Positions 1,904-64,000 of a DNA stretch of 64,000 nt are shown one piece after another. A model generated the notes under the pieces. The model was not told the DNA's origin. It did no database searches and saw only the letters and a list, made by a program, of their open reading frames with translations. Both the position numbers and the translations under genes were made by a program. Numbering within the stretch: position 1 is the first letter of the stretch; every line of letters begins with the position of its first letter. The DNA is from an uncultured Desulfobulbus sp. (GTDB taxonomy: Bacteria; Desulfobacterota; Desulfobulbia; Desulfobulbales; Desulfobulbaceae): positions 4,124,710 through 4,188,709 of the forward strand of contig OY760916.1 in the NCBI GenBank assembly GCA_963664075.1, read 5' to 3'.

Positions 1904-2019
1904 ATTGCATTCTCACAGAGAAAGGTTCTTGGTTTCGTCGCAAAAGCCTTACTATAGACGATTGAAAAAAAACAGCAAGGTGTCAGCATAACTCATGGAA
2001 AAAAGGGGAAAAAAGATCC

Positions 2020-2082
2020 ATACATGAAATTTTCTTGTGCAAGATGCGTTGTTCAGAACCCATCCGCCGTCGCGGATTCAGG
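2020..2082 (+). repeat. Right-end fragment of the 218-bp MITE-like family
   Basis: 2041-2082 matches 22162-22203 at about 35/42 nt (ATGCRTTGTTCAG...CCGCCGTCRCGGATTCAGG). The upstream ATACATGAA is also shared with the full element. Confidence 0.7.
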
Positions 2083-2175
2083 AAAATAACTGTTATCCTC
2101 CTCCCTTATCTGGCAAAATCATCCAAGAAGACTTATCTTCCTAGGATCTGTCCCTCTGACCACAAGGAGAATTGT

Positions 2176-4854: not shown

Positions 4855-4866
4855 AACATCTTCTAA

Positions 4867-4907
4867 AACAAGTCAAGCCGGGCAAATGTCACCCGGCTTG
4901 ACTTGTT
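4867..4907. terminator. Bidirectional intrinsic terminator between acnA and the convergent M48 gene
   Basis: Perfect 16-bp inverted repeat AACAAGTCAAGCCGGG/CCCGGCTTGACTTGTT with a 9-nt loop. Confidence 0.8.
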
Positions 4908-4985
4908 ATGATGTATGGACGAGCAAAATGCAGGCATTGTACATCCACCAAAAAAGCTCCTCACTACCAATGAGTGTTCCCTAAT

Positions 4986-5810
4986 TTAGGACTTTTTCGC
5001 CAATGCTGGCGGCAAAGCACGAACCTGGCCTGCAGTATAGCCCTGTTTCCTGCTCAACTCCCCAAGCCGTTTTATCCGTTCCACCGCCTCGGGATGCGAG
5101 GCAAAATAGCTCGTAATCCCTCGTCCTCGCTCCTCATTCTGCATGGCGCTGAAAAATTCCGTCGCCCCGCCCACATGGCCATAACGACAGTTCAGCGCTG
5201 TCAAGGCCAGACTGTCCGCCCGGGATTCCCGTGATCTGGAGTAGCTTGCCGTCCCCAACCCCACGGCCGGCGTGGCTAATTTGGTCAAACCGGAATCCGA
5301 TCCTGTCAAAAAGGCCATCATGGCGGTCAAGACGATGCCGCGCCCCATGCCACTTAAATGATCGCGATGCTTGAAATGCGCCAGCTCATGGGCCAGCACA
5401 AAGGCGAGACCGTTTTCAGATTGAACCTTGTCGAGAATCCCGGAGAGAACGATAATCCGTCCTCCGGGCAAGGCCAGTGCATTCGCGGTATCTGCCTCCA
5501 CCAGATGGACCGTGACTGGATAGCCGACATCGATACAGCGACCAAGTTCGTACACCAACTGCTGAATATCAGCCTCTCCAGGGAGAGGTTTCCCCACAGA
5601 CTCTTTCACGGTAGGGGAGAGGGCCGTAAAAATCTGGGCCTCCATTTTGGGAGAAATCCACATCACTGCCCTGTCCACCAACCAACCGGAGATGACAAAG
5701 ACAGCTATACAGGTCAGTATCACCCCCGCTAGAAGGACTGCAAATTCCTGCAAGGGGCTGTTGTGACTGACGTTGTTATTCTTCTGAGGATAGGAAGGTT
5801 TGAACTCCAT
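4986..5810 (-). CDS. M48 family zinc metallopeptidase, membrane-anchored
   Basis: ANALALPGG, VLAHELAHF (HExxH), YSRSRESRAD, FASHP; N-terminal TM helix. Confidence 0.9.
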   Translation of the reverse strand: MEFKPSYPQKNNNVSHNSPLQEFAVLLAGVILTCIAVFVISGWLVDRAVMWISPKMEAQIFTALSPTVKESVGKPLPGEADIQQLVYELGRCIDVGYPVTVHLVEADTANALALPGGRIIVLSGILDKVQSENGLAFVLAHELAHFKHRDHLSGMGRGIVLTAMMAFLTGSDSGLTKLATPAVGLGTASYSRSRESRADSLALTALNCRYGHVGGATEFFSAMQNEERGRGITSYFASHPEAVERIKRLGELSRKQGYTAGQVRALPPALAKKS

Positions 5811-52637: not shown

Positions 52638-53693
52638 CTACTGTTTATACAGCGAACGCTCGGAAAGAACAACCCCTGCAAAAATCTCTACCAATTCGGG
52701 GTCAAATTGGGTTCCTGCGCAGCGACGCAGCTCACCAATGGCCTCGGGGATGGAAAGATTTTTGCGGTAATTACGGCGGGAGGTCATGGCATCATAACTG
52801 TCGACGATGGTGATAATCCGGGTCAGGGTATCAATATCATCACCGCTAATTCCATCGGGATAGCCCGTCCCATCGAGTCGCTCATGGTGATGACGGATGA
52901 TTGCCTGTTCACGATCCATGAAACTCAGCGGTTCTATGATGCTGGCTCCAATGGCGGGATGTTTTTTAATTAAGGACCATTCTTCGGGAGTCAAATTGCC
53001 GGGTTTTCGTATGCAGGAGAGATCAATCACCAGCTTACCGATATCATGAAACTGGGAAGCGCGTTGGAGGACTAAGAGATCTTCTGCATTAAGCCGGGCA
53101 GACTGACCAAGAAGCATGGCAAGTTCTGTGACGCGCACGGTGTGCCCGGCTGTGTACCCATCTTTTTCTTCCATGGCTGCCTGCAGGCTGGACATGATCT
53201 GGACAGTAGCGTCCTCAAGATGGTTGCTATAGCGCTCGAGAAGTTGGTTTTTTTCCTCAAGCTCCCGGGTCTTGGCCTCAACCTCGACTTCGAGATTTTT
53301 TTTATAAGCCTTTTCCTGCAAAAGAAACCGACGTTTTTCCACCGCCTGCTTCACCTTGACATGAAACAACTCGATATCGGCTATGGGTTTGGTCAGGAAA
53401 TCGTAGGCCCCCAGGTGGATAGCTTTAACAGCGTAATCCATAGAGCCGACACCGGTTAAAAATAGAACGGGGATATCAACAGAGAGCTCATTGAGCTGCT
53501 CAAGAGTTTCAAACCCATCCATGCCTGGCATATTGATATCGAGAACAATGACGTCAAAATCATCGGAGACCTGCTCCAATACCTCTCGCCCCGACTCAAC
53601 GGCCACCACCTCATGATCAAAAAGGTGGAGGATTTTTTGAATCGCCAAACGAACTAGACTATCATCATCGGCTACGAGTATCTTTGACCCCAT
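52638..53693 (-). CDS. Response regulator with HD-GYP cyclic-dinucleotide phosphodiesterase domain
   Basis: REC (LDINMPGMDG), HTVRV, FHDIGK, HHERLDGTGYP, DSYDAMTS. Confidence 0.92.
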   Translation of the reverse strand: MGSKILVADDDSLVRLAIQKILHLFDHEVVAVESGREVLEQVSDDFDVIVLDINMPGMDGFETLEQLNELSVDIPVLFLTGVGSMDYAVKAIHLGAYDFLTKPIADIELFHVKVKQAVEKRRFLLQEKAYKKNLEVEVEAKTRELEEKNQLLERYSNHLEDATVQIMSSLQAAMEEKDGYTAGHTVRVTELAMLLGQSARLNAEDLLVLQRASQFHDIGKLVIDLSCIRKPGNLTPEEWSLIKKHPAIGASIIEPLSFMDREQAIIRHHHERLDGTGYPDGISGDDIDTLTRIITIVDSYDAMTSRRNYRKNLSIPEAIGELRRCAGTQFDPELVEIFAGVVLSERSLYKQ

Positions 53694-53918: not shown

Positions 53919-54608
53919 TTAGGGGCTCAGTAAGGAAATCCTGGTTTCCGGAACACCAGGGGGGCCATGGGTTCCCCGATAACGTACAAAAAGATTATCA
54001 TCTTTTCGAAACCAATATTCCGCCGACCAGATTGCCGAGAGCAGCCCCTCCAGGCGAATAACGACCTTATTGGCCCACACCTCCTTACCATCACTCTCCA
54101 GCAAACGCCCACTCCCTCCTCGCTTTGCCTGCAGGGTCAATGCTTCGAGATTGTCTGGACGAACTGTCCAGAAACTGACTGTATCCTCTTGACGCTCTTC
54201 CATGCAACGCAGAGAAAAAGACAGGGGTTGATACCAGGGGCGTTTATCAATTTTTTCTCTTTTATCTATCTTTTTCCCTTCAAAAACACCCGAGTACACC
54301 AGAAAGTTTCCCGTTCGCTCCACTCGAATATCGATGTCAGGGGTTCTGGTATAATGCCAGGACAGTGTCCCTCCCTGAGGCGTATTCACACTGACAAAGA
54401 CCTCCTCTTTCTGCCGTTGGGTAACTGTAAGCGTGACTTCTTCGGGTTCTTTCTCAAGTTGCCAGACAAAAACAAAGCTGTCATCACCCGTCTGCTCCTG
54501 ATAGCGCACTTCCTGAATAGAGCCAAAAGCCTCTGAAAAGGGAAAAGCGACGAGGGTAACAACCCAAATAAACAAACAGAGAGGACAAGGACTCATTGTA
54601 GTTTTCAT
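53919..54608 (-). CDS. Exported hypothetical protein
   Basis: N-terminal signal-like hydrophobic stretch; ATGA overlap with the phoH stop. Confidence 0.75.
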   Translation of the reverse strand: MKTTMSPCPLCLFIWVVTLVAFPFSEAFGSIQEVRYQEQTGDDSFVFVWQLEKEPEEVTLTVTQRQKEEVFVSVNTPQGGTLSWHYTRTPDIDIRVERTGNFLVYSGVFEGKKIDKREKIDKRPWYQPLSFSLRCMEERQEDTVSFWTVRPDNLEALTLQAKRGGSGRLLESDGKEVWANKVVIRLEGLLSAIWSAEYWFRKDDNLFVRYRGTHGPPGVPETRISLLSP

Positions 54609-55942
54609 AGGAGTTCACTCGCAAGCATGGCCAGTTCGGAGCGCTCGCCTTTTTCAAGATTGACATGGGCATAGAGCGGCTGTCCCTGCATTTTTTCGAT
54701 CAGATGGCTCAGACCATTGGACTGGGTATCGAGATAGGGGTGATCAATTTGATGAATATCGCCAGTAAACACAACCTTGGTGCCCTCTCCAGCTCGAGTG
54801 ATAATGGCTTTGACCTCATGTGGGGTGAGGTTTTGGGCCTCATCCACAATCATGTACATCTGCACCAGGCTGCGTCCACGAATGTAAGCCAGTGGTTCGA
54901 TAATCAGCCGCTTCTCTTCCTGGAGCCTCTCTAAACTCTGCCCCATTTCGCTGTGCTCGGAGAATTGTCCACGAATCACAGACAAGTTGTCGTAAAGTGG
55001 CTGCATATACGGACCGATTTTCGAGTTAATGTCTCCGGGGAGGTAGCCTATATCTTTATTAGATAACGGAACAATAGGTCGAGCCAGCATGATCTGACGA
55101 TACTGGGATCGTTGCTCTAATGCGGCAGCCAGAGCCAAAAGTGTTTTTCCGGTCCCCGCCTTTCCAGACACAGTGACCAAAGGCACCTCCGAGTTACACA
55201 GGGCATGCACCGCAAAACTCTGCTCGGCATTGCGAGGAGTAATACCATAGACCGTGGCCCGCTGAATTTTTTCAAGAAGTTTGTCTTCCCCTTTATGGGT
55301 CGCTAAAACGGATTTTCGTCCGTTGCGCAGGATCAAATACTCGTTAGCCAGAAGCTCTTCTTCCTGTGCTAAAAGATTGAGAGCAATCCCTTCCGGGTTT
55401 GCGTGCAGAGCATCTATCAAGTTGGGATCCACGTCTTCCATGAGGCGACAACCACTGTACAATCCACCGATATTTTTGACATGATCGGTGGTGTAATCCT
55501 CCGCCATCAAGCCAACAGATTTGGCTTTCATCCGCAGGTTTACATCTTTGGTCACCAGAATGTAGCGCCTGGAAGGATTTTCTTTTGCAAGCCAATAGCC
55601 GATATTAAGTATCTGATGGTCCGGCTTGGAAGCTGAAGGAAAATGCTGACGCAAATCTTCATGAGTGAGCTGCTCAAGCTTGATAGAGACCCGCCCCTTA
55701 TCCGGTCCGATCTGGACGCCTCCATTGAGCAGTTTGCCCGCACTGAGATTGTCCAGAGTACGAACAAATTCTCGAGCATGAAAATTTACCGTTTGGTTCC
55801 CTTTTTTGAATTGATCGAGTTCCTCGAGAACGGTGATGGGAATAACAACGTCATGTTCCTGAAAATGATTTATGCAGGTCGAATCATGAAGAATGACATT
55901 GGTATCCAGGATAAAGGTTTTTGGGGAGGAGCTGTTGGTCAT
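54605..55942 (-). CDS. PIN-PhoH (PhoH2-type) protein
   Basis: ILDTNV PIN domain, LVTKDVNLRMKA, GKAGTGKT, YIRGRS, VDEAQN, GDIHQID. Start ATG 55942. Confidence 0.92.
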   Translation of the reverse strand: MTNSSSPKTFILDTNVILHDSTCINHFQEHDVVIPITVLEELDQFKKGNQTVNFHAREFVRTLDNLSAGKLLNGGVQIGPDKGRVSIKLEQLTHEDLRQHFPSASKPDHQILNIGYWLAKENPSRRYILVTKDVNLRMKAKSVGLMAEDYTTDHVKNIGGLYSGCRLMEDVDPNLIDALHANPEGIALNLLAQEEELLANEYLILRNGRKSVLATHKGEDKLLEKIQRATVYGITPRNAEQSFAVHALCNSEVPLVTVSGKAGTGKTLLALAAALEQRSQYRQIMLARPIVPLSNKDIGYLPGDINSKIGPYMQPLYDNLSVIRGQFSEHSEMGQSLERLQEEKRLIIEPLAYIRGRSLVQMYMIVDEAQNLTPHEVKAIITRAGEGTKVVFTGDIHQIDHPYLDTQSNGLSHLIEKMQGQPLYAHVNLEKGERSELAMLASELL

Positions 55943-56660
55943 GGGCGACTCGTTCCTCGGATTTAGGGGATTGACAGGGGAGAGTGAACCGGTGGAGGCA
56001 TCGCAGAGGTTGCCCGGGTTCCGGTTCAACGAAAAGACAGAGTGCGTCAATGAGCAGGGGCTCGTCAAGTAATGGTTCAAAAAGTTCCAAAAGACAGGTG
56101 TGAACTCGATCTTTTGTTTTATTGCTGGCCATTCGTACGGTCAGGGTAAAATGAAACCGATATTGCTCAAACACATACGGATACCCCCAGAGCTCAAGAT
56201 TTTTCTTTTCCTGGCCCGTAAGCTGAACTGCTTTTCTTCTGGCCAGCTCACTGGGTTTCAGCGGAGCTCTGAATCGATCAAAGGCTCGGGTACACAGAGA
56301 AGATAATCCCTGCAGTGTAGCGGAATGCCGGGTGGGACGAAGGCAAAAAAAGTTATCCAGCTGGGAAACTGTCAGGGGAGGGATAGTTATCTGTCGCTGA
56401 CTGGCAACAAAGTGTTCAACCGCCTGAAACAAATCCTGCTCCCGCAACCCTTCTTTTAACCTGAACGGAGCGACAATGGTCGCATGAAACCCATACCTGG
56501 AAGGTGCGCGGGTTATATCGACAATGGTCTCTCCATCCAGTCGGCGAAAGGCAGGCGGTGTTAACGACACCCCACTCACAGCATCCCTCCCCAGCCAGCG
56601 GCAGCCCTGAAGCCAGAGTGGTGAGGTAGGGGGTGGAGCAAAAAATAGAGCGTATCTCAT
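55884..56660 (-). CDS. DUF1045 protein (2H phosphoesterase-like, usually phn-linked)
   Basis: RYALFFAP, RYGFHAT, WGYPYV, FHFTLT. Confidence 0.85.
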   Translation of the reverse strand: MRYALFFAPPPTSPLWLQGCRWLGRDAVSGVSLTPPAFRRLDGETIVDITRAPSRYGFHATIVAPFRLKEGLREQDLFQAVEHFVASQRQITIPPLTVSQLDNFFCLRPTRHSATLQGLSSLCTRAFDRFRAPLKPSELARRKAVQLTGQEKKNLELWGYPYVFEQYRFHFTLTVRMASNKTKDRVHTCLLELFEPLLDEPLLIDALCLFVEPEPGQPLRCLHRFTLPCQSPKSEERVAHDQQLLPKNLYPGYQCHSS

Positions 56661-57077
56661 AAGAACTCAGCAGAAATAATAATTTGGAGCCAAGAGACTT
56701 CAGGCATGCCCCTGAACCAGAACAGAGGATGGAAAACGAAAAATCCCTTATTCAGGGAAAAGTACAATTTTCAAAAGAACGTTTTTGATACGCTTTCCTT
56801 TTTCCATATTCCGGTGAGGACTCTTCAAGTACCTTTGTACTGTGCGCACTATGCTCCTAAGTTTTTACCCCTCTGTTATAAAAGTATTATGATTCTGTAA
56901 AAAAGAATCTTTCTCAAATCTTCCTGACCAAAATATAACAACGGATTAACCCCAATATAATAACAGCCCACTAGATAAGGACCACATCTGCTTGGTTTCC
57001 TGATTGCCCTCTTCAATCCATGTGTTCTTAAGAGTGTATCGCCATCAGGCAAGCGCAAAATTAGCAAGGAGCGCTCC

Positions 57078-57944
57078 ATGTCCAAACTGCTTGTGGTCAT
57101 TATCGACGGACTCTGTACTGAAACGCTGTCCTGTGCCCACGTCCCCAGCCTGGACGGGCTGGCCAGACTCGGCATTCAGGGGGAACACCTGCAATCTCAA
57201 CAGGCGGCCCTCACCCTCCCAAATCTTATCAGTCTCTTTACCTCCCTTCCTCCCGAGGAGCATGGAGTGCTTTCCAATAGTGGTTCTGCGATTCTCTCGC
57301 CACTTGCGATCCCCCTCTTTTCTCTACTTCGCTATCGCCAACAGAATATTGCCGCCTTTTACAGCAGCGATCGTCTGCGAAATATTTTCCCCATGGGTTC
57401 TTTACAAACAGGGGTACTCATAAACTCGCAATCAATTCGAAACGTTGACCAGGAACTCAGCCAGCAGACAGCCCGCCATCTCCAACGGGAAAAACCAGAC
57501 TGCTGCCTGTTGTATCTAGAAGGCCCCAATATCACCGGAACTCATTTTGGCTTCTCCTCAGAACCCTATCTGGAGGCAGTGGAACAGGCTGGACGTTCCA
57601 TCAGCGTCATTATAGAACACCTGGCTTTTGTTGGTGCCGAACAGGAGTATTGCACCCTGGTTGTAGGTTGCTGTGGGGCGGCAGCCCAGCAGAGAGAGAA
57701 CAAATGTAGCTCACCGGTGTTTCTTTGCGGACCTGGTGTTCTCCAGGGACGAGTTGAGGAACAACCGCTCTCGCTCCTGGATCTGACTCCAACCATGGCC
57801 TCACTTCTAAATGTCGCCCCCCATCCCGATTGGCGTGGTCGAACCCTTTGCGAATGGTTTTATCCCAAAACTCTGGAGATGCGGCCTCTTTCGTCAAGAT
57901 TTACTCAGGCAGGGCACAGGCAAGAACAGCCACTTGCTGCCTGA
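57078..57944 (+). CDS. Alkaline-phosphatase-superfamily protein with degenerate metal ligands
   Basis: VIIDGL, TLPN, HGVLSN, DLTPT retained; the usual D..GH and SDHGG positions read PNITGT and GCCGA. Confidence 0.75.
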   Translation: MSKLLVVIIDGLCTETLSCAHVPSLDGLARLGIQGEHLQSQQAALTLPNLISLFTSLPPEEHGVLSNSGSAILSPLAIPLFSLLRYRQQNIAAFYSSDRLRNIFPMGSLQTGVLINSQSIRNVDQELSQQTARHLQREKPDCCLLYLEGPNITGTHFGFSSEPYLEAVEQAGRSISVIIEHLAFVGAEQEYCTLVVGCCGAAAQQRENKCSSPVFLCGPGVLQGRVEEQPLSLLDLTPTMASLLNVAPHPDWRGRTLCEWFYPKTLEMRPLSSRFTQAGHRQEQPLAA

Positions 57945-58037
57945 GACAAAAACTCTGTCTCTCTTCGTCTCTCCCTGGACATCCTTGAGTGTTCCCGGGC
58001 TTTCAATAAAGAATTTAACCCGTGGAGATAGCATCAA

Positions 58038-58814
58038 ATGTTTCGAATAGCCACTCTCAGCAATCCATGCGATCACATGCGCCCCGAGGAACTCACCTTA
58101 AAACTATCCCCGCTGCTCTCCCAGGGACTTGACCTTTTCTGCTGTCAGTCCGTGGGACAAAGCACCTCTCTACAAGGGGCCCCCCAGGACAACGAAGCCA
58201 TGCTTCTTGCCCAGCACATGGGATTGACCCACAGCTGCTTTGCTTCAGATCGAAAAAGAAAAAAATTGGGTAAAGATTCCTCTCTCCGTGGCCAGGTTAT
58301 TTTCTCTGGTCCTGGAGTCTGGGTACTCAATAGTGGAAGTTTCATCATTGGGGATGGGGACAACAAGGAAACCGTCCTCTTTGCTTTGGTCCGTAAAAAT
58401 GGATCTTCTGTTCTTGTCTTCAACTTTCACCTGGCAGGTACCGCCAAAAGACAGGAACAGCAGTTGTTACAGATTTTTCAGCAAAACATCCTGAAGGAAG
58501 CCTACGGTGCTGTGGCTATCTGTACTGACCGCCCCTCACTCCTTTCTCAAAAAAAATGGTTCAACATTGCTTCTCATTCCAACTATCTGCCCTTTCACTG
58601 TGAGACCAGCAACCAGGGTATGTTAGGCCTGTTCAAAGCTGCAAACGGCTCTATCACCCAATACCCCCTCGATTTCGATCAGGATACACTCCCAGGCTTG
58701 AGCATGCTGGTGGATGTGAAACGGACCCAAAAAAGTAGACGTTCCCGTCCTTCTTTTCCCCTCTCGTTTCGTGAGCAATGGCTTGGATACCGCGATAATC
58801 GCGTTTTTGCCTAA
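58038..58814 (+). CDS. Endonuclease/exonuclease/phosphatase-like protein, degenerate
   Basis: RIATLS, DLFCCQSV, VFNFHL, ICTDRP align with the usual ATxN, DxxCLQE, NTHL, GDFN motifs, but the key N/E/N/H residues are absent. Confidence 0.55.
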   Translation: MFRIATLSNPCDHMRPEELTLKLSPLLSQGLDLFCCQSVGQSTSLQGAPQDNEAMLLAQHMGLTHSCFASDRKRKKLGKDSSLRGQVIFSGPGVWVLNSGSFIIGDGDNKETVLFALVRKNGSSVLVFNFHLAGTAKRQEQQLLQIFQQNILKEAYGAVAICTDRPSLLSQKKWFNIASHSNYLPFHCETSNQGMLGLFKAANGSITQYPLDFDQDTLPGLSMLVDVKRTQKSRRSRPSFPLSFREQWLGYRDNRVFA

Positions 58815-58844
58815 ATATTTTCTATATGTTTCAAGGAGCATCTG

Positions 58845-60563
58845 ATGTTCACCGTCGACGATATCCTGCATCAGTACTACCCAAAATTCAGTGATCGCCC
58901 TCTGATTACACCGCCGTTGCGCATATTGCTTCGCCGTTTACTGCGAGAACGAGAGTTTGTTCGCTTTGCCCTGGAGTATCCCCATCTTCAAGGGATGGAT
59001 TTCGTTGAGCAGGTTTTAGAAACCCTACAGGTCACCTACGCACTCAACGACCGTGAACGGGAAAACATCCCCGTCAGTGGCCGGGTGATGATTGTGGCCA
59101 ATCATCCCATTGGCAGCCTGGACGGTCTGGCGCTCCTGAAGCTGATACACGAGGTACGCTCGGATGTACGCATAGTTGGTAATGATCTTCTGGAGGCAAT
59201 CAAACCTTTACGTCCCTGCCTGCTCTCGGTCAAGGTCATGACAGGGAACACACTCAAGGCACAGATCGCTCAAATCGATCAGGCACTAGCCAATGAAGAG
59301 GCGGTGATTATTTTTCCTGCTGGTGAAGTTTCCCGCTTCGGCACCAAGGGAATCAAAGACGGGCGTTGGCAAAAAGGATTTCTTCGCCTGGCCACCCGGG
59401 CTAAGGCACCAATTCTCCCCATCCATATTCGCGGTCGTAATTCGCTCTCCTTTTATACAACCTCAGCCGTTGCCAAACCTCTCTCTACTCTGATGCTGAT
59501 TGGTGAAATGTTTCGTAAGCAGAAAAAACCGCTGCACATGACCATTGGAGGACTCATTCCCTACAGCGCCTATGAGGGGCTCAAACTCCGCCCAAAAGAC
59601 AAACTGGCCCTGTTTCGAAAACACCTTTATCGGGTGGGTGCCGGCAAAAAAGGCATTTTTGCCACAGAAACTGCCATTGCTCGCCCCGAGCGACGGATTG
59701 TGCTCAAACAAAATATAAACCAGGGGGAACTCCTGGGAAAAACACCCGATGGAAAAGAGATTTACCTCTTTCGTGGTAATGAACATTCCTCGGTAATGCG
59801 GGAGATTGCTCGCTTACGGGAAATAACCTTTCGATCCGTGGGGGAGGGGACCGGAAAACGCAGAGATACTGATAGCTACGATCGCTACTATCACCATCTG
59901 GTGCTCTGGTCGACTGAGGATCTGGAAATTGTCGGGGCCTATCGTTTTGCCGACGTAGGCAAAGTGATGCAGAAACACGGGGTGGAAGGACTCTACAGTC
60001 ACAGCCTCTTTCATTTTCAACCGAGCCATGTTCCCTACCTCGAACAGGGATTAGAACTTGGACGCAGCTTTATTCAGCAAAAATACTGGGGAAAACGGAG
60101 CCTGGACTATCTCTGGTACGGTATTGGCGCTTTTTTACGCAATAATCCGCAGTACCGCTATCTCTTTGGACCTGTAAGCATCAGTAATACCATGCCGCAG
60201 ATGGCTAAAGAACTGCTCATTTTCTTTTACAAGCTCTACTTCACCGACAGTGGTTATCAGCCCTGTTCACGTAACCCTTTTCGTTTTTCTCTGCCAGTGA
60301 CTGATCTTGCAGCATCTTTTGTCGGTAATAATTACCGGCAAGATCTGGTGCATCTCAAATCATTGCTTGGCTCCATGGGGGTATCCATTCCTACCCTCTA
60401 TAAACAGTACACCGAACTCTGTCCCCCCGGTGGTGTTCTCTTTTTGGATTTCAATGTCGATCGAGATTTTGGAAACTGCGTAGATGGACTGGTCGTTGTC
60501 GATATCATGCAACTCAAACCTCAAAAACGTAAACGCTATATTGAAGAATCCTTAAATCATTAA
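58845..60563 (+). CDS. Bifunctional acyltransferase (PlsC-like + GNAT), OlsF-like ornithine lipid synthase
   Basis: N-terminal VANHPIGSLDG and FPAGEVSR; C-terminal LREITFR, VGAYR, LELGRSFI, DFGNCVDG. Confidence 0.8.
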   Translation: MFTVDDILHQYYPKFSDRPLITPPLRILLRRLLREREFVRFALEYPHLQGMDFVEQVLETLQVTYALNDRERENIPVSGRVMIVANHPIGSLDGLALLKLIHEVRSDVRIVGNDLLEAIKPLRPCLLSVKVMTGNTLKAQIAQIDQALANEEAVIIFPAGEVSRFGTKGIKDGRWQKGFLRLATRAKAPILPIHIRGRNSLSFYTTSAVAKPLSTLMLIGEMFRKQKKPLHMTIGGLIPYSAYEGLKLRPKDKLALFRKHLYRVGAGKKGIFATETAIARPERRIVLKQNINQGELLGKTPDGKEIYLFRGNEHSSVMREIARLREITFRSVGEGTGKRRDTDSYDRYYHHLVLWSTEDLEIVGAYRFADVGKVMQKHGVEGLYSHSLFHFQPSHVPYLEQGLELGRSFIQQKYWGKRSLDYLWYGIGAFLRNNPQYRYLFGPVSISNTMPQMAKELLIFFYKLYFTDSGYQPCSRNPFRFSLPVTDLAASFVGNNYRQDLVHLKSLLGSMGVSIPTLYKQYTELCPPGGVLFLDFNVDRDFGNCVDGLVVVDIMQLKPQKRKRYIEESLNH

Positions 60564-60599
60564 AATAATATCAAAATTAATGGGGGATGGGCTTTCCCC

Positions 60600-62768
60600 T
60601 TACCGTTTTTTACCCATCATTGCCTTTTTCATATTTATTCTGCTGGCCTCGGCCAATCGTTTTTCCGTCTGTTTGATCAGTTGACGATGGATACAGATTG
60701 TGCCGATTCGGCCAGTTGAAACCCGCTGCGCATAACTGCCATCGGCCTGCATCTCCCATACATTACGCTTATTGGCCAGCTGTAAATCAAGCCATTGCCG
60801 CAACTGCTTACGCAGTTTAGGCGCCTCCACTGGTGTGCAGATCTCAACCCGACTCTCAAGGTTGCGCTGCATCAGGTCGGCTGATCCGATGAAATACTCC
60901 TCATCCCCCTGGTTACGAAAATAAAATAACCGTGCGTGCTCAAGAAAGCGCCCCACTAGAGAAATAACTCGAATATTTTCAGAGAGGCCGAGAATACCAG
61001 GACGCAGCCGACAGGTATCCCGAATAATCAGATCGATCTGTACCCCGGCCTGTGAAGCCTTATACAAGGCAGCAATGACCTCTCGATCTTCCAGAGCGTT
61101 GGTTTTAAGCTGAATAAGGCCTGGTTGTTCCGGGGTATGCCCACGGACCTCACGTTCAATTTTTTTAATCAACGCCTTTTTAAACATCCGCGGCGAAGGT
61201 AACAGCTTGCGGTAATGGCGCATGGGAGTGTAGCCGGTGGTGAGATAGTTAAAGAGTTCTGTCAGGTCCGCTCCAATATCACTATCACAGGTAAAGAGCC
61301 CCAGGTCACTATACATACGAGCAGTTCCCGAGTGGTAGTTACCGGTACCGATATGAGCGTACCGGCGTAATCCGTTAAAATCTTTTCGAATTACAAAAAT
61401 AACCTTACAGTGAGTCTTCAGTCCGACAACACCGTAGGTTACATGGATCCCTGCCTCTTCAAGATACTCTGCCCAGCGGATATTGGCCTGTTCATCAAAG
61501 CGGGCTTTCAACTCAACAACCACAGCAACCTGTTTGCCGTTGCGGGCAGCGTCAATGAGGTATTCAATAACTCGAGAATCGCCAGCGGTTCGATAAAGCG
61601 TCATTTTGATAGCCCGCACCTTGGGATCAGTACTAGCCTCACGCAGATAGCGCTCTACCGAGGTGTTAAACGATTCATAGGGATGCTGAACTAAAATCGA
61701 TCCGTTTTTACGGATCACATGAAAAATATTAGGATCTTCATCGAGCAGTACCGGGTGATCCAAGGGTTTATGCGGTTCGTATCGCAGTTCAGGCCTGTCG
61801 AGTTTGGCAATCTGAAACAGATCTCTCTTCCCTATAATTCCATCAACTTCAAAAACATCACGAAACTCATCTACACCTAACTCTGCAGCCAACATACCTC
61901 GGTGGAGCGGTTCCATATCTTTATCTACTTCCAGGCGCACAATCTCGGCAAATTTCCGTTCACGCAGGGCCGACTCAATCACTTGCAAAAGGTCGTTTGC
62001 CTGCTCCTGATGGGGTTCGGTAATGGCATTTCTTGTTACTCGAAAAATCTCGCAGCTCTCCACCACCATCTCTGGAAATAAAACTTCAAGGTTATTTGAG
62101 ATCAGGTCTTCCAGAGTAATGAAATGACCGTTTTCACCAAAGGAAAGAAAACGGGGCATATCCTCGCTGACCGGTACCTTGATACGGTTCATATAGGTGT
62201 GTTCACTATCGGGATAACGCACACTGACAAGCAGGTTGATCGAAAGATTTGAAATAAAGGGGAAAGGGTGTGCCGGATCCATCCCCTGGGGTGTGAGCAT
62301 AGGATAGACCTGATCAAGAAAATATTGTTCAGCCTCTTCTTTTTCCTCAGGATTCAAATCGGCATAAGCTACGAGACGAATATGTTTACGACTGAGATGC
62401 CGTTTCAACTCTTCTTCGAGTTCTTCCTGCTGCAGCAGAATATCTCGCACTTCAATATGACAGGCATCAATCTGCTCTTGGGGTAAACGACCATCAACCG
62501 AAAGTTCACGTACACCGGCGCCCACCTGTTGCTTGAGGCCACCGATACGTTTCATAAAAAACTCATCCAGATTGGACCCCACCACTGCAAGAAAAAAAAC
62601 ACGATCCAGAAGCGGTACTCGCTCATCCTGACCTTCATGGAGGACCCGACGGTTAAACGCAAGCCATGTTAACTCCCGGTTCAGGTACCATTCCGGAGAT
62701 TCCAGGTCTGTGATCAACTTGGGAGCTTCTTCTTTTGTAACTTCAGGCTCAGACACTATTTCTTCCAT
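60600..62768 (-). CDS. ppk1: Polyphosphate kinase 1
   Basis: NRELTWLAFN, HPFPFISN, QHPYESF, KMTLYRT, KTHCK, GRFLEHAR, SADLMQRN. Confidence 0.96.
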   Translation of the reverse strand: MEEIVSEPEVTKEEAPKLITDLESPEWYLNRELTWLAFNRRVLHEGQDERVPLLDRVFFLAVVGSNLDEFFMKRIGGLKQQVGAGVRELSVDGRLPQEQIDACHIEVRDILLQQEELEEELKRHLSRKHIRLVAYADLNPEEKEEAEQYFLDQVYPMLTPQGMDPAHPFPFISNLSINLLVSVRYPDSEHTYMNRIKVPVSEDMPRFLSFGENGHFITLEDLISNNLEVLFPEMVVESCEIFRVTRNAITEPHQEQANDLLQVIESALRERKFAEIVRLEVDKDMEPLHRGMLAAELGVDEFRDVFEVDGIIGKRDLFQIAKLDRPELRYEPHKPLDHPVLLDEDPNIFHVIRKNGSILVQHPYESFNTSVERYLREASTDPKVRAIKMTLYRTAGDSRVIEYLIDAARNGKQVAVVVELKARFDEQANIRWAEYLEEAGIHVTYGVVGLKTHCKVIFVIRKDFNGLRRYAHIGTGNYHSGTARMYSDLGLFTCDSDIGADLTELFNYLTTGYTPMRHYRKLLPSPRMFKKALIKKIEREVRGHTPEQPGLIQLKTNALEDREVIAALYKASQAGVQIDLIIRDTCRLRPGILGLSENIRVISLVGRFLEHARLFYFRNQGDEEYFIGSADLMQRNLESRVEICTPVEAPKLRKQLRQWLDLQLANKRNVWEMQADGSYAQRVSTGRIGTICIHRQLIKQTEKRLAEASRINMKKAMMGKKR

Positions 62769-62798
62769 GGTGGTGGCACATATAGGTAAAAAAAGGGG

Positions 62799-62836
62799 CT
62801 AGAATCCGGGTGCAACCACTCTGTCACGGACTCTAA
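62799..62836. repeat. Possible degenerate short MITE derivative upstream of ppk1
   Basis: TAGAATCCG...GTCACGGACTCTA palindrome resembling 40549-40588. Confidence 0.35.
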
Positions 62837-63155
62837 TAAATATTTAAGGGATTTATCTTTACACCAAAAAAATTTGGTTTTGATTAAATTTAGCCTTTTC
62901 CGACAAAACTCGAGAAAAATATTTTCAGTGATTTTTTTATTGCGGCATTTTTTGGAGCGACAGGGTAGTTTTGATTCCGAAAAAGAGGTATAATTACTCG
63001 AATACTCAGACAAACGACCAAGTTACTCTTTTTTATCTTATCCTGACGTATCCTTAATGGGTTTATGTTTTTTCTTTCCCTTGAAAAAACACTTTGCTAG
63101 GTCTAATTGTCAAATTTCTGGCATCCCTCTACCCCTATATCTGCCTTGAAATTCT

Positions 63156-64000
63156 ATGGGTAAAACGACTCAAACGCCTATATTTCTCTTTTTTATCACC
63201 CTTCTTCAGGCTCAATTCCTGAATGCTACCCCACATACCTCGCAAATCAAGCAAGTTAGCCCCGAATCTGCGATCGAGTGGCACGACGATTTTGTCAGCA
63301 ATAATACAGTTACTGTCCAGCTTCTAGCCATTAATGAGGCGAATGACACAACACTTGCGCCTTCCCTAAGTTCCCAGTCTTATGATACAAGCAAACCAAT
63401 TATTGCTGGCTACCTGAAAAAAGTCGAAGCCCAAATGCCCGGTGCTACCTTCTTTCTCCACACTGGATATCAAACTCAGATGCACCAGGCAGGGCTTATT
63501 CAACATTCAACCAAGTTTGAAAGGAACCTGTTCACCATGCTTGGCAATTCGCACTGTCATCCGAGTGGTGGATATGATAGAGAATGTAATTTTATAGGGA
63601 TTCCAGATAATAACGAATTTCTCCAGGGGGTAGAAGAGATATCGCATCTGCTGTATGGCTCTCAATCTGGGCAATCCAATTATCAGCAAAACTCATTTCC
63701 CTCTCTCTGCACCAACCTTGTAGAAACAGAAAGTAAACGCCCGGTTTTCCTTCCCTATGTTGTTCGCTTGGTGGACGGAGTTCCCATTGGCTTTATTGGC
63801 GTACTGCTCAAATCAGAACACAACGAAAAACTAGTCAATGATAAGGAGCACCTGACAATCAGAGACGAAGCCGAGTCTGTCAATGAGTATGTTACAATTC
63901 TTCAAGGCCTGGGAGTGCATACCATTGTGGTTATGATCCACCAGGGAAATAAAGATCAGACTGAAGTAACACCTCAAAAAACGGCAGAGGATAATCCCCA
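63156..64000 (+). CDS. Exported 5'-nucleotidase-like metallophosphoesterase, degenerate, runs off the window end
   Basis: Manual translation is open from ATG 63156 to the window end: VQLLAINE, AGYLKK, DNNEF, PYVVRLVDGVPIGFIG, DEAESVN, GVHTIVVMIHQG. Confidence 0.75.
   Translation, partial: MGKTTQTPIFLFFITLLQAQFLNATPHTSQIKQVSPESAIEWHDDFVSNNTVTVQLLAINEANDTTLAPSLSSQSYDTSKPIIAGYLKKVEAQMPGATFFLHTGYQTQMHQAGLIQHSTKFERNLFTMLGNSHCHPSGGYDRECNFIGIPDNNEFLQGVEEISHLLYGSQSGQSNYQQNSFPSLCTNLVETESKRPVFLPYVVRLVDGVPIGFIGVLLKSEHNEKLVNDKEHLTIRDEAESVNEYVTILQGLGVHTIVVMIHQGNKDQTEVTPQKTAEDNP

What the first reader, a model, noticed from the sequence alone, without database searches (positions are those of the whole stretch)
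57078..64000. Three intact ORFs of three phosphoesterase folds, all missing their metal ligands, around olsF-like and ppk1
Seen: (1) the AP-superfamily protein keeps the first Asp and the Thr nucleophile, but D..GH reads N..GT and SDHGG reads GCCGA. (2) The EEP-like protein has S for the N and E ligands, TDRP for GDFN and no terminal DH. (3) The exported 5'-nucleotidase-like protein has NEAND for NDFHG, GY for GD and DNNEF for GNHEF. None has a stop or frameshift over 258-288 codons. They surround intact phosphate-economy genes. Inference: either a coordinated set of pseudo-enzymes repurposed as phosphate or nucleotide binders or regulators, or parallel early decay of a scavenging island. Loss focused on catalytic sites would favour repurposing.
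Basis: partly seen in the sequence, partly recalled or inferred. Interest (0 to 1): 0.65.

Follow-up and report, generated by a model that had tools for sequence, protein, structure and literature searches.

The report
Three conserved dead phosphoesterases in Desulfobulbus
Three neighbouring genes in a Desulfobulbus phosphate-starvation gene cluster encode proteins that keep the folds of three phosphate-cleaving enzyme families but lack most canonical catalytic residues, and all three have been preserved by selection, so they are repurposed proteins of unknown role rather than decaying genes.

Summary
The window comes from a Desulfobulbus close to D. rhabdoformis.

- **ORF 57078-57944:** a minimal, cytoplasmic alkaline-phosphatase-fold protein. 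It keeps D10 and T46 but lacks five of the seven canonical zinc-site residues.
- **ORF 58038-58814:** matches no Pfam or NCBIfam family, but its model folds as an endonuclease/exonuclease/phosphatase (EEP) domain. It lacks the Mg-binding Glu, the Asn of GDFN, the aspartate of the IDY block and the terminal Asp-His.
- **ORF 63156 onward:** 396 aa in full. It is the N-terminal domain of an exported 5'-nucleotidase, without motifs I and V and without the C-terminal domain.

None of the three is decaying. dN/dS is 0.04-0.25, and independent assemblies reproduce the open frames.

The histories differ. The AP-like and EEP-like genes form a genus-wide pair, adjacent in all 16 loci examined, and the degenerate sites are family-wide. 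The pair sits beside PhoH2-DUF1045 and usually upstream of olsF. The truncated nucleotidase is a single-origin clade nested inside canonical Desulfobulbus 5'-nucleotidases at the same position next to ppk1.

"Repurposed pseudo-enzymes" is therefore supported, "early decay" is refuted, and "one coordinated set" is not supported. What the proteins do remains inferred. A residual Asp/Thr/Cys/Cys metal site in the AP-like protein cannot be excluded.

The parts
53919..54608 (-). Conserved exported hypothetical protein (229 aa), last gene of the hyp-PhoH2-DUF1045 leftward unit
   Evidence: ORF. No Pfam or NCBIfam hit. Orthologues in the same position in L001-L005 and in L015, L021, L023-L025.
54605..55942 (-). 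PIN-PhoH2 RNA helicase/RNase. The likely start is the ATG at 55942, which gives 445 aa as in relatives; the longest ORF runs to 56080.
   Evidence: PF13638 PIN_4 at 9.6e-36 and PF02562 PhoH at 1.7e-49. Genes called in relatives are 445-446 aa and overlap DUF1045 by about 59 nt.
55884..56660 (-). DUF1045 / putative phosphonate-operon protein (2H-phosphoesterase-like), with both H-x-T motifs readable in the sequence
   Evidence: PF06299 at 2.3e-52 and TIGR03223 at 250.5 bits against a 248.95 cut-off. FHAT and FHFT are visible in the translation.
56875..56950 (.). Two inverted GTTAY-N6-RTTAY boxes 60 bp apart (56875-56890 on +, 56935-56950 on -) in the divergent control region. Candidate operator.
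   Evidence: The same pair at the same 60-bp spacing occurs in L001, L002, L003 and L021; the spacing is 79 bp in L019. The stricter pattern gives 3 matches in 64 kb against 0.6 expected.
57078..57944 (+). AP-like protein: minimal cytoplasmic alkaline-phosphatase/NPP-fold protein, 288 aa. D10 and T46 are kept; N151, T155, C198 and C199 replace zinc ligands; the segment carrying the last zinc His is absent; the C-terminus is -LAA.
   Evidence: dN/dS 0.04-0.25.
58038..58814 (+). EEP-like protein: 258 aa with an endonuclease/exonuclease/phosphatase fold and no canonical Mg or catalytic residues. CCQS is invariant, and the conserved C-terminal tail PLSFREQWLGYR..FA replaces the SDH strand.
   Evidence: dN/dS 0.08-0.21.
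58845..60563 (+). OlsF, bifunctional ornithine-lipid synthase. It starts 30 nt after the EEP-like stop.
   Evidence: NF052615 at 843 bits against a 620 cut-off, full length. dN/dS 0.03-0.04.
60582..60600 (.). Hairpin between the convergent ends of olsF and ppk1. It is terminator-like on both strands.
60600..62768 (-). Polyphosphate kinase 1
   Evidence: TIGR03705 at 752 bits against a 466 cut-off, with all four PPK domains. dN/dS 0.014-0.023.
63156..64000 (+). NT5-like protein: exported, truncated 5'-nucleotidase N-domain without motifs I and V. It runs past the window end; the full protein (P0247) is 396 aa.
   Evidence: dN/dS 0.18-0.23.

Best explanation
The three ORFs are long-lived pseudo-phosphoesterases. 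They keep the fold, lack the ancestral catalytic machinery, and are kept by purifying selection. They have two separate histories inside a Desulfobulbaceae phosphate-starvation and lipid-remodelling island.

(a) AP-like and EEP-like form a fixed two-gene module. Neither has a signal peptide, so both should be cytoplasmic. The module lies divergent from hyp-PhoH2-DUF1045, across a conserved operator-like spacer, and in most lineages olsF follows within 20-45 nt. I infer that they act without hydrolysis, as binding or regulatory partners in the phosphate-starvation response. The most likely target is the switch from phospholipids to ornithine lipid made by OlsF. The strongly conserved but poorly modelled C-terminal tail of the EEP-like protein would then serve as a docking motif.

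(b) The NT5-like protein descends from the canonical exported 5'-nucleotidase next to ppk1. A single event placed a stop in the inter-domain linker, and the metal motifs were lost. The periplasmic N-domain has since been retained in at least four sublineages with some new, non-nucleotidase role.

Shown here: the folds, the missing residues, selection, synteny and the single origin of the NT5-like clade. Inferred: the lack of catalysis, co-transcription with olsF, and any binding or regulatory role.
For: **Folds.** AF2 plus Foldseek for AP-like and EEP-like. Profile links to PF01663 and PF03372.

**Family-wide loss of catalytic residues.**
- AP-like, 55 sequences: the Zn2 Asp position is never Asp and the Zn1 His position is never His. 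The nucleophile position holds Pro, Ile, Leu or Val, which cannot act as a nucleophile, in 8.
- EEP-like, 57 sequences: Glu 0/57, Asn of GDFN 1/57. No His aligns at the SDH position among the commonest residues listed, and the IDY-block Asp is a gap in 56/57.
- NT5-like, 8 clusters: motif I 0/8 and the first His of motif V 0/8. All share the same C-terminal stop in the linker.

**Selection.**
- Against L001, dN/dS is 0.04, 0.08 and 0.18 for the three ORFs, compared with 0.04 for OlsF and 0.02 for PPK1.
- Against L014 it is about 0.25, 0.18 and 0.23, with binomial p between 1e-6 and 4e-9 against neutrality.

**Synteny.** AP-like is directly followed by EEP-like in all 16 loci. olsF lies directly downstream in all but L019/L020 and L027.

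**Island content in relatives.** PhoA, a PlcP-like Metallophos gene with a GT4 glycosyltransferase, PS-decarboxylase-like and LGT-like genes, ppk1, 5'-NT and phnCD.

**NT5 tree.** The truncated forms make one clade (100/100) nested among canonical Desulfobulbus enzymes, on long branches.

**Published background.** OlsF matters under phosphate limitation in a sulfate reducer (PMC5193443), and a pho box precedes olsF in Serratia (PMC12971839).

**Sequence check.** An independent assembly reproduces the region.
Against: - No activity, metal-content, expression or interaction data exist.
- In the window's AP-like protein, D10, T46, C198 and C199 could still hold one metal, and H156 (53/55) sits next to the lost His.
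- The EEP-like protein keeps N129, H131 (41/57) and D164 (50/57).
- The pair persists without an adjacent olsF in two lineages (L019/L020, L027). Its most constant neighbour is PhoH2-DUF1045, which weakens the lipid-specific reading.
- A terminator-like hairpin lies in the last codons of the EEP-like gene.
- dS against L001 is about 1-1.5, close to saturation. The L014 contig carries frameshifts that look like long-read errors, including in olsF. The AP-like estimate against L014 therefore rests on 169 codons.
Confidence: 0.6

Rival explanations
1. Remodelled enzymes rather than pseudo-enzymes. The AP-like protein uses a single metal held by D10/T46/C198/C199, or a Cys-based site. The EEP-like and NT5-like proteins have acquired a different chemistry or substrate that does not need the canonical residues.
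For: Cys is a good zinc ligand. C198 is present in 43/55 family members and position 199 is Cys or His in 28/55. D10 (54/55), H156 (53/55) and many other polar residues (D98, D124, H134, D141, E162) are conserved. The EEP-like protein keeps N129, H131 and D164 and has invariant C35/C36. Purifying selection is as strong as on OlsF in the comparison with L001.
Against: - Position 199 is Gly, Ser, Pro, Arg, Tyr or Ala in 27/55. The nucleophile is Pro, Ile, Leu or Val in 8/55. Position 151 is not a ligand residue in 16/55. No complete site is therefore conserved across the family.
- H156 lies at i+5 from position 151 on a helix, whereas the canonical pair is i and i+4.
- The EEP-like family has no Glu or His at the essential positions in the sequences aligned.
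- The NT5-like protein lacks the substrate-binding C-domain.
Confidence: 0.2
2. Parallel early decay: the three ORFs are young pseudogenes that have not yet acquired stops.
For: They evolve faster than OlsF and PPK1. The NT5 gene has been deleted outright in some relatives: L004 keeps a 25-aa remnant and L002 keeps nothing.
Against: dN/dS is 0.04-0.25 and significantly below neutrality. Frames are intact in every genome-derived orthologue. The degenerate motifs are shared across families that have diverged to 33-55% identity. The truncated NT5 clade has diversified into at least four sublineages.
Confidence: 0.03
3. One coordinated three-part system: the three pseudo-enzymes work together as a set of phosphate or nucleotide binders.
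For: They lie within 7 kb around olsF and ppk1 in the window and in L001, L014 and L021. All three derive from phosphoesterase folds.
Against: The predicted compartments differ: the AP-like and EEP-like proteins have no signal peptide, whereas the NT5-like protein has one. Most genomes with the AP/EEP pair carry a canonical 5'-NT (L005, L006, L015, L025) or none (L002, L004) at that place. The NT5-like gene is on the far side of the oppositely oriented ppk1 and has its own upstream region.
Confidence: 0.07
4. The AP-like/EEP-like pair serves RNA or nucleotide turnover together with PIN-PhoH2 and the 2H-phosphoesterase-like DUF1045 rather than lipid remodelling. For example, it could bind RNA ends or nucleotides released during phosphate starvation.
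For: PhoH2-DUF1045 is the most constant neighbour and shares the conserved divergent spacer with its inverted repeat boxes. The pair persists without olsF in L019 and L027. The best structural matches of the EEP-like model are nucleic-acid enzymes such as TDP2, nocturnin, CNOT6L and ANGEL2, and the AP-like protein is closest to nucleotide pyrophosphatases.
Against: Foldseek ranks reflect the general fold (TM 0.55-0.59), not substrate. olsF follows within 20-45 nt in most lineages. Lipid genes (PlcP-like with GT4, PS-decarboxylase-like with LGT-like) flank the same unit.
Confidence: 0.12

Closest known systems
Bacterial nucleotide pyrophosphatase/phosphodiesterase (Xanthomonas NPP, PDB 2GSN/7MW8) and ENPP4-7, alkaline-phosphatase superfamily, PF01663
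   Same: Core alpha/beta fold (TM about 0.71). N-terminal IDG...T-x-P...HG block with the Zn2 Asp and the Thr nucleophile. C-terminal D-x-x-P-T-M...P-H-P motif shared with ENPP4.
   Different: 288 aa against 380 or more. The roughly 100-aa segment carrying the last zinc His is absent. D210 becomes N, H214 becomes T, D257 and H258 become C and C. There is no signal peptide. The family is restricted to Desulfobulbus-type genomes.
Endonuclease/exonuclease/phosphatase superfamily (PF03372): TDP2, nocturnin, CNOT6L, and an uncharacterised bacterial NTWK...CCQEV...GDFN...SDH subfamily
   Same: Fold (138 PDB matches at E<=1e-3). Profile-level homology to canonical PF03372 proteins, with the CCQ, N-x-H-L and D-of-GDFN positions shared.
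   Different: No Pfam hit of its own. The Mg Glu is Ser in 55/57. The Asn of GDFN, the IDY-block Asp and the SDH His are lost. A new invariant C-terminal tail, PLSFREQWLG..FA, is present.
UshA-type periplasmic 5'-nucleotidase (PF00149 + PF02872), in particular the canonical Desulfobulbus orthologues next to ppk1
   Same: Orthologous position, signal peptide, conserved Cys pair and the fold-core residues of the N-domain. Nested in their tree.
   Different: Stop in the inter-domain linker, so there is no nucleotide-binding C-domain. Motifs I (DxH) and V (GHxH) are lost in the whole clade; motifs II and III are variably lost. Branches are long.
Known fold-retaining pseudo-phosphoesterases used as scaffolds or sensors, recalled from memory and not tested here: Vps29 (metallophosphoesterase fold, retromer scaffold) and PbgA/YejM (AP-superfamily domain that controls LPS and lipid homeostasis)
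   Same: A phosphoesterase fold kept for binding or regulation rather than hydrolysis. PbgA/YejM links such a domain to membrane-lipid homeostasis.
   Different: No sequence relationship was shown. The compartments and partners differ. The analogy is a lead for function, not a classification.

Membership tests
Alkaline-phosphatase superfamily / NPP (PF01663) | AP-type alpha/beta fold and a Pfam score above the gathering threshold | tested here: met
   54.5 bits against a 23 cut-off, with the best aligned stretch covering residues 4-68. Foldseek TM about 0.71 to NPPs and sulfatases.
Alkaline-phosphatase superfamily / NPP (PF01663) | Zn2 Asp after strand 1 and the Thr/Ser nucleophile | tested here: met
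   D10 and T46 align to the IDG Asp and the T-F-P-N Thr of Xac NPP. Across the family, D10 is present in 54/55 and Thr or Ser in 47/55.
Alkaline-phosphatase superfamily / NPP (PF01663) | Zn1 ligands Asp-x3-His and the distal His | tested here: not met
   N151 and T155 occupy these positions. The position is never His in 55 sequences. The segment carrying the distal His is absent.
Alkaline-phosphatase superfamily / NPP (PF01663) | Zn2 Asp-His pair (S-D-H-G) | tested here: not met
   The window reads G-C-C-G. The position is never Asp in 55 sequences, and His occurs at the second position in 11/55. Whether Cys-Cys binds metal is not testable here.
Endonuclease/exonuclease/phosphatase superfamily (PF03372) | EEP four-layer alpha/beta sandwich fold | tested here: met
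   AF2 pLDDT 84.6. 138 PDB matches at E<=1e-3, and the matches listed are all EEP domains.
Endonuclease/exonuclease/phosphatase superfamily (PF03372) | Match to the Pfam family model | tested here: not met
   None of 57 family members hits PF03372. Homology appears only through a family profile that reaches canonical members.
Endonuclease/exonuclease/phosphatase superfamily (PF03372) | Catalytic set: strand-1 Asn, Mg Glu, Asp and Asn of GDFN, terminal Asp-His | tested here: not met
   The window has S8, S38 and T-D-R-P, with no SDH. Across the family, Glu is 0/57, the Asn of GDFN is 1/57 and no His aligns at the SDH position among the commonest residues listed. Only the Asp of GDFN is kept, in 50/57.
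UshA-type 5'-nucleotidase (PF00149 + PF02872) | Metallophosphoesterase motifs I-V (DxH, GD, GNHE, H, GHxH) | tested here: not met
   The window reads I = NEAN, II = GY, III = DNNE, IV = His kept, V = GQSQ.
UshA-type 5'-nucleotidase (PF00149 + PF02872) | C-terminal nucleotide-binding domain (5_nucleotid_C) | tested here: not met
   The full protein P0247 is 396 aa and ends in the linker. No Pfam domain is on record for it or its clade.
UshA-type 5'-nucleotidase (PF00149 + PF02872) | Descent from the family (orthology) | tested here: met
   Same place next to ppk1 as the canonical genes in L005, L006, L015 and L025. Nested in their tree with 100/100 support.
OlsF ornithine-lipid synthase (NF052615) | Full-length equivalog score above the cut-off, with both acyltransferase domains | tested here: met
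   843 bits against 620, covering 1-567 of 570. PF19576 and PF13444 both match.
Polyphosphate kinase 1 (TIGR03705) | Equivalog score above the cut-off, with four PPK domains | tested here: met
   752 bits against 466. The N, middle, C1 and C2 domains are all present.

The most novel reading that the evidence does not exclude
The AP-fold and EEP-fold proteins form a dedicated pseudo-enzyme pair that senses a phosphorylated ligand, such as a phospholipid head-group, a nucleotide or polyphosphate. Through the conserved PLSFREQW tail and the ssrA-like -LAA/-FA ends, the pair would gate OlsF or the wider lipid-remodelling response by docking and regulated proteolysis. This would be a previously unknown control layer for making phosphorus-free membranes in sulfate reducers.
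Probability: 0.15. Interest if true: 0.75.

Novelty: new variant of a known kind. Interest (0 to 1): 0.5.

Why it matters
Bacterial pseudo-enzymes are rarely recognised. Annotation pipelines call these proteins "alkaline phosphatase family protein", "hypothetical protein" or nothing, so phosphatase and nucleotidase capacity would be over-counted in Desulfobulbus genomes and metagenomes.

The locus offers two tractable cases.

- **A fixed pair beside a lipid gene.** Two dead phosphoesterases of different folds sit next to the ornithine-lipid synthase, inside the cluster that sulfate reducers are expected to use under phosphate limitation.
- **A natural series for one gene.** The same position holds a canonical enzyme, a truncated ligand-less form, or nothing, depending on the lineage. 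This shows how a periplasmic enzyme domain can be kept after catalysis is lost.

If the pair regulates or assists OlsF, that would add a missing component to models of phosphorus-free lipid synthesis.

Tried and rejected
- **Exact look-up of the window's PPK1.** Nothing on record.
- **Sequence searches for the EEP-like family.** Profile-to-PDB search gave nothing and Pfam gave nothing for any of the 57 members. Only structure prediction and the exhaustive profile search linked it to EEP.
- **RNA-seq.** I looked for runs to test expression and co-transcription, but only runs of unstated kind turned up and no RNA-seq library could be identified among them.
- **A general Pho box.** The conserved GTTAY-N6-RTTAY boxes are specific to the DUF1045/AP-like spacer. 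They were not found before phoA, the PlcP-like gene or the 5'-NT gene of L015, so I do not call them a Pho box.
- **H249 as the missing distal zinc His.** Rejected, because it aligns to the non-catalytic P-H-P motif of ENPP4 after the last helix.
- **The 268-aa gene after NT5-like as a specific partner.** Rejected, because the same zinc-ribbon acidic protein follows ppk1 in L002, where NT5 is absent.
- **Frameshifts in L014.** They affect AP-like, EEP-like and also olsF. I treated them as likely long-read errors, not decay.
- **Canonical EEP relatives.** They gave no informative name or gene context.
- **Model coordinates.** None are returned, so alternative-ligand geometry and docking of the tail could not be inspected.

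Full report
**What is there.** The last 10 kb of the window hold these genes in order:
- on the minus strand: an exported hypothetical (53919-54608), PIN-PhoH2 (54605-55942/56080) and DUF1045 (55884-56660);
- on the plus strand: an AP-superfamily ORF (57078-57944, 288 aa), an unassigned ORF (58038-58814, 258 aa) and OlsF (58845-60563);
- on the minus strand: ppk1 (60600-62768);
- on the plus strand: an ORF cut by the window end (63156-63998).

OlsF and PPK1 pass their curated equivalog cut-offs, at 843 against 620 bits and 752 against 466 bits. A scan of species genomes with OlsF places the window in Desulfobulbus, with 93% identity to D. rhabdoformis DSM 8777. It returned six syntenic Desulfobulbus or Desulfobulbaceae loci, L001-L006. 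Contigs of an independent sample cover 56764-64000 with four SNPs and no indel, so the unusual sequences are not assembly errors.

**The AP-like protein.**
- Pfam Phosphodiest scores 54.5 bits, with the best aligned stretch over residues 4-68.
- Against Xanthomonas NPP and ENPP4, D10 and T46 align with the Zn2 Asp and the nucleophile.
- The helix D-x-x-G-H reads N151-I-T-G-T155, and S-D-H-G reads G-C198-C199-G.
- Only about 11 residues separate that strand from the P-x-x-L-x-G-P-G strand. NPPs carry about 100 residues there, including the last zinc His, so that ligand is absent.
- H249 aligns instead with the non-catalytic P-H-P motif that ENPP4 has after its last helix.
- The AF2 model (pLDDT 84.8) matches NPPs, ENPPs and sulfatases at TM about 0.71.
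- The first strand starts at residue 3, so there is no signal peptide.

Across 55 family members the catalytic positions look like this:

| Position | Residues found |
|---|---|
| Zn2 Asp | never Asp (Cys in 43) |
| Zn1 His | never His |
| Zn1 Asp | Asp 24, Asn 15, other 16 |
| Zn2 His | Cys 17, His 11, other 27 |
| Nucleophile | Pro, Ile, Leu or Val in 8 |
| D10 | kept in 54 |
| H156 | kept in 53 |

D10, T46, C198 and C199 of the window's protein could still hold one metal. H156 is at i+5 from position 151 on the helix, whereas the canonical ligand pair is i and i+4, so it probably does not replace the lost His. That last point is inference.

**The EEP-like protein.**
- Neither it nor any of 57 relatives hits a Pfam family, and a family profile finds no PDB sequence.
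- The AF2 model (pLDDT 84.6) gives 138 PDB matches at E<=1e-3. The matches listed are all EEP domains: TDP2, nocturnin, CNOT6L, ANGEL2 and INPP5K.
- An exhaustive profile search of 1.8 billion representatives found 101 proteins. The distant ones are canonical PF03372 members carrying N-T-W-K, C-C-Q-E-V, N-T-H-L-T-H-L, G-D-F-N, I-D-Y and S-D-H.
- Aligned to these, the window's protein has S8 for Asn, S38 for the Mg Glu, T-D-R-P for G-D-F-N, a gap at the I-D-Y Asp and no S-D-H.
- Family-wide, Glu is 0/57 (Ser in 55) and the Asn of GDFN is 1/57. No His aligns at the S-D-H position among the commonest residues listed.
- In place of the S-D-H strand the family has an invariant tail, P-L-S-F-R-E-Q-W-L-G...F-A. 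It is modelled with low confidence (pLDDT about 51-54).

**The NT5-like protein.** The window's own full protein is P0247, 396 aa.
- In L005, L006, L015 and L025 the same position next to ppk1 holds a canonical 583-590-aa 5'-nucleotidase. It carries INDFH, GD, GNHE, H and GHTH and has both Pfam domains.
- The window's protein, its orthologues in L001, L014 and L021, and four further clusters are 367-398 aa.
- They end at the same point in the inter-domain linker, ...P-x-x-R/A-E-T/K-x-M.
- They lack motif I (0/8) and the first His of motif V (0/8), and they vary at motifs II and III.
- They keep the signal peptide, the Cys pair and the fold-core Gly, Pro, Leu and Asn residues.
- Retention of canonical-invariant residues is 0.30 at the eight catalytic positions and 0.53 elsewhere.
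- A maximum-likelihood tree puts all eight in one clade (100/100) nested among canonical Desulfobulbus enzymes, on long branches. This indicates one truncation event followed by diversification.
- Other lineages lost the gene. L004 keeps a 25-aa remnant and L002 keeps nothing.

**Decay or function.** All genome-derived orthologues are open. dN/dS by the Nei-Gojobori method is:

| Comparison | AP-like | EEP-like | NT5-like | OlsF | PPK1 |
|---|---|---|---|---|---|
| Window vs L001 (dS about 1-1.5) | 0.04 | 0.08 | 0.18 | 0.04 | 0.02 |
| Window vs L014 (dS 0.23-0.38) | about 0.25 (169 codons) | 0.18 | 0.23 | 0.03 | 0.014 |

L014 is the closest contig. The share of nonsynonymous changes is below the neutral expectation, with p between 1e-6 and 4e-9. 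The three genes are therefore less constrained than their neighbours but clearly selected. Simple decay is refuted.

**Context.**
- AP-like is directly followed by EEP-like in all 16 loci read.
- olsF follows within about 20-45 nt everywhere except L019/L020 and L027 (D. alkaliphilus).
- The hyp-PhoH2-DUF1045 unit lies divergently upstream wherever the contig reaches that far. In L024 a hybrid kinase gene is inserted between DUF1045 and the pair.
- Relatives add PhoA, a PlcP-like Metallophos gene with a GT4 glycosyltransferase, PS-decarboxylase-like and LGT-like genes, and phnCD around the same core.
- Together these make a phosphate-starvation and lipid-remodelling island.
- OlsF mutants of Desulfovibrio alaskensis are impaired under phosphate limitation (PMC5193443). 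A pho box precedes olsF in Serratia (PMC12971839).
- Neither paper mentions accessory AP-like or EEP-like genes, and my literature searches found no description of them.

**Reading.**
- **Shown:** three fold-retaining, ligand-poor proteins under purifying selection, with two separate histories.
- **Inferred:** they no longer hydrolyse phosphoesters by the ancestral mechanisms.
- **Inferred:** the cytoplasmic pair acts as a binding or regulatory module of the phosphate-starvation response, most likely linked to OlsF-dependent lipid replacement.
- **Inferred:** the periplasmic NT5-like N-domain has a new non-nucleotidase role.

The main rival is that one or more of them are remodelled enzymes, with the Cys-Cys site of the AP-like protein the best candidate. 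A second rival ties the pair to PhoH2-DUF1045 and RNA or nucleotide turnover, because that unit is the most constant neighbour.

The NT5-like protein is predicted to sit in a different compartment, arose later and has a different distribution.

**Limits.**
- No RNA-seq run could be identified.
- Model coordinates are not returned, so site geometry and complexes could not be examined.
- dS against L001 is near saturation.
- L014 carries probable long-read frameshifts.

Noticed in passing
window 56875-56890 (+) and 56935-56950 (-): Two inverted GTTAY-N6-RTTAY boxes lie exactly 60 bp apart in the DUF1045/AP-like divergent spacer. The same pair and spacing occur in L001, L002, L003 and L021, with 79 bp in L019, while the rest of the spacer is not conserved. 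This is a candidate operator of an unknown regulator. It was not seen before the other phosphate genes of L015.
   Followed up: partly
window 57936-57944 and 58806-58814 (C-termini of AP-like and EEP-like): The AP-like protein ends in -LAA in 27/55 family members (31/55 end in -AA). The EEP-like protein ends in -xFA or -FAA in 45/57. These ends resemble the ssrA-type ClpXP degron and may point to regulated proteolysis.
   Followed up: partly
window 58791-58803: A terminator-like hairpin (CGCGATAATCGCG followed by TTTTTG) lies within the last codons of the EEP-like gene, 40 nt before the olsF start. It could attenuate read-through into olsF or be a chance match: 13 such sites were found in the region against 7.8 expected.
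   Followed up: no
window 55884-56660 and 54605-56080: DUF1045, a fourth phosphoesterase-type fold in the locus, keeps both H-x-T motifs. It overlaps the PIN-PhoH2 gene by about 59 nt if PhoH2 starts at 55942, as in relatives. The longest PhoH2 ORF, with a TTG start at 56080, is probably too long.
   Followed up: partly
L004:14314-14388; L002:14001-14729: L004 keeps only a 25-aa remnant (84% identical) of the 5'-nucleotidase C-domain beside ppk1. L002 has no trace of the gene between ppk1 and a zinc-ribbon acidic protein gene. The nucleotidase position is therefore canonical, truncated or empty in different Desulfobulbus lineages.
   Followed up: yes
L014:164-796, 1932-3660, 4020-5564: The closest metagenome contig has apparent frameshifts in the AP-like and EEP-like genes and in olsF, which look like long-read errors. 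It also has a Cthe_2159-family gene inserted between olsF and ppk1.
   Followed up: partly
L024:3285-5807: In a D. elongatus-like genome, an 840-aa hybrid histidine kinase/response regulator (dCache-PAS-HisKA-HATPase-REC) is inserted between DUF1045 and the AP-like gene.
   Followed up: no
L017:450-2630: A distant, also degenerate EEP-like relative (P0176, which still has the Glu) sits directly downstream of a Phytase-like (PF13449) gene instead of an AP-like gene.
   Followed up: no
L015:2226-4095; L023:1-2756; L027:368-4440: Relatives carry a PlcP-like Metallophos gene with a GT4 glycosyltransferase, and a PS-decarboxylase-like gene with an LGT-like gene, next to PhoH2. The window has a response-regulator/HD-GYP gene (52638-53693) and an amidase there instead.
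   Followed up: partly
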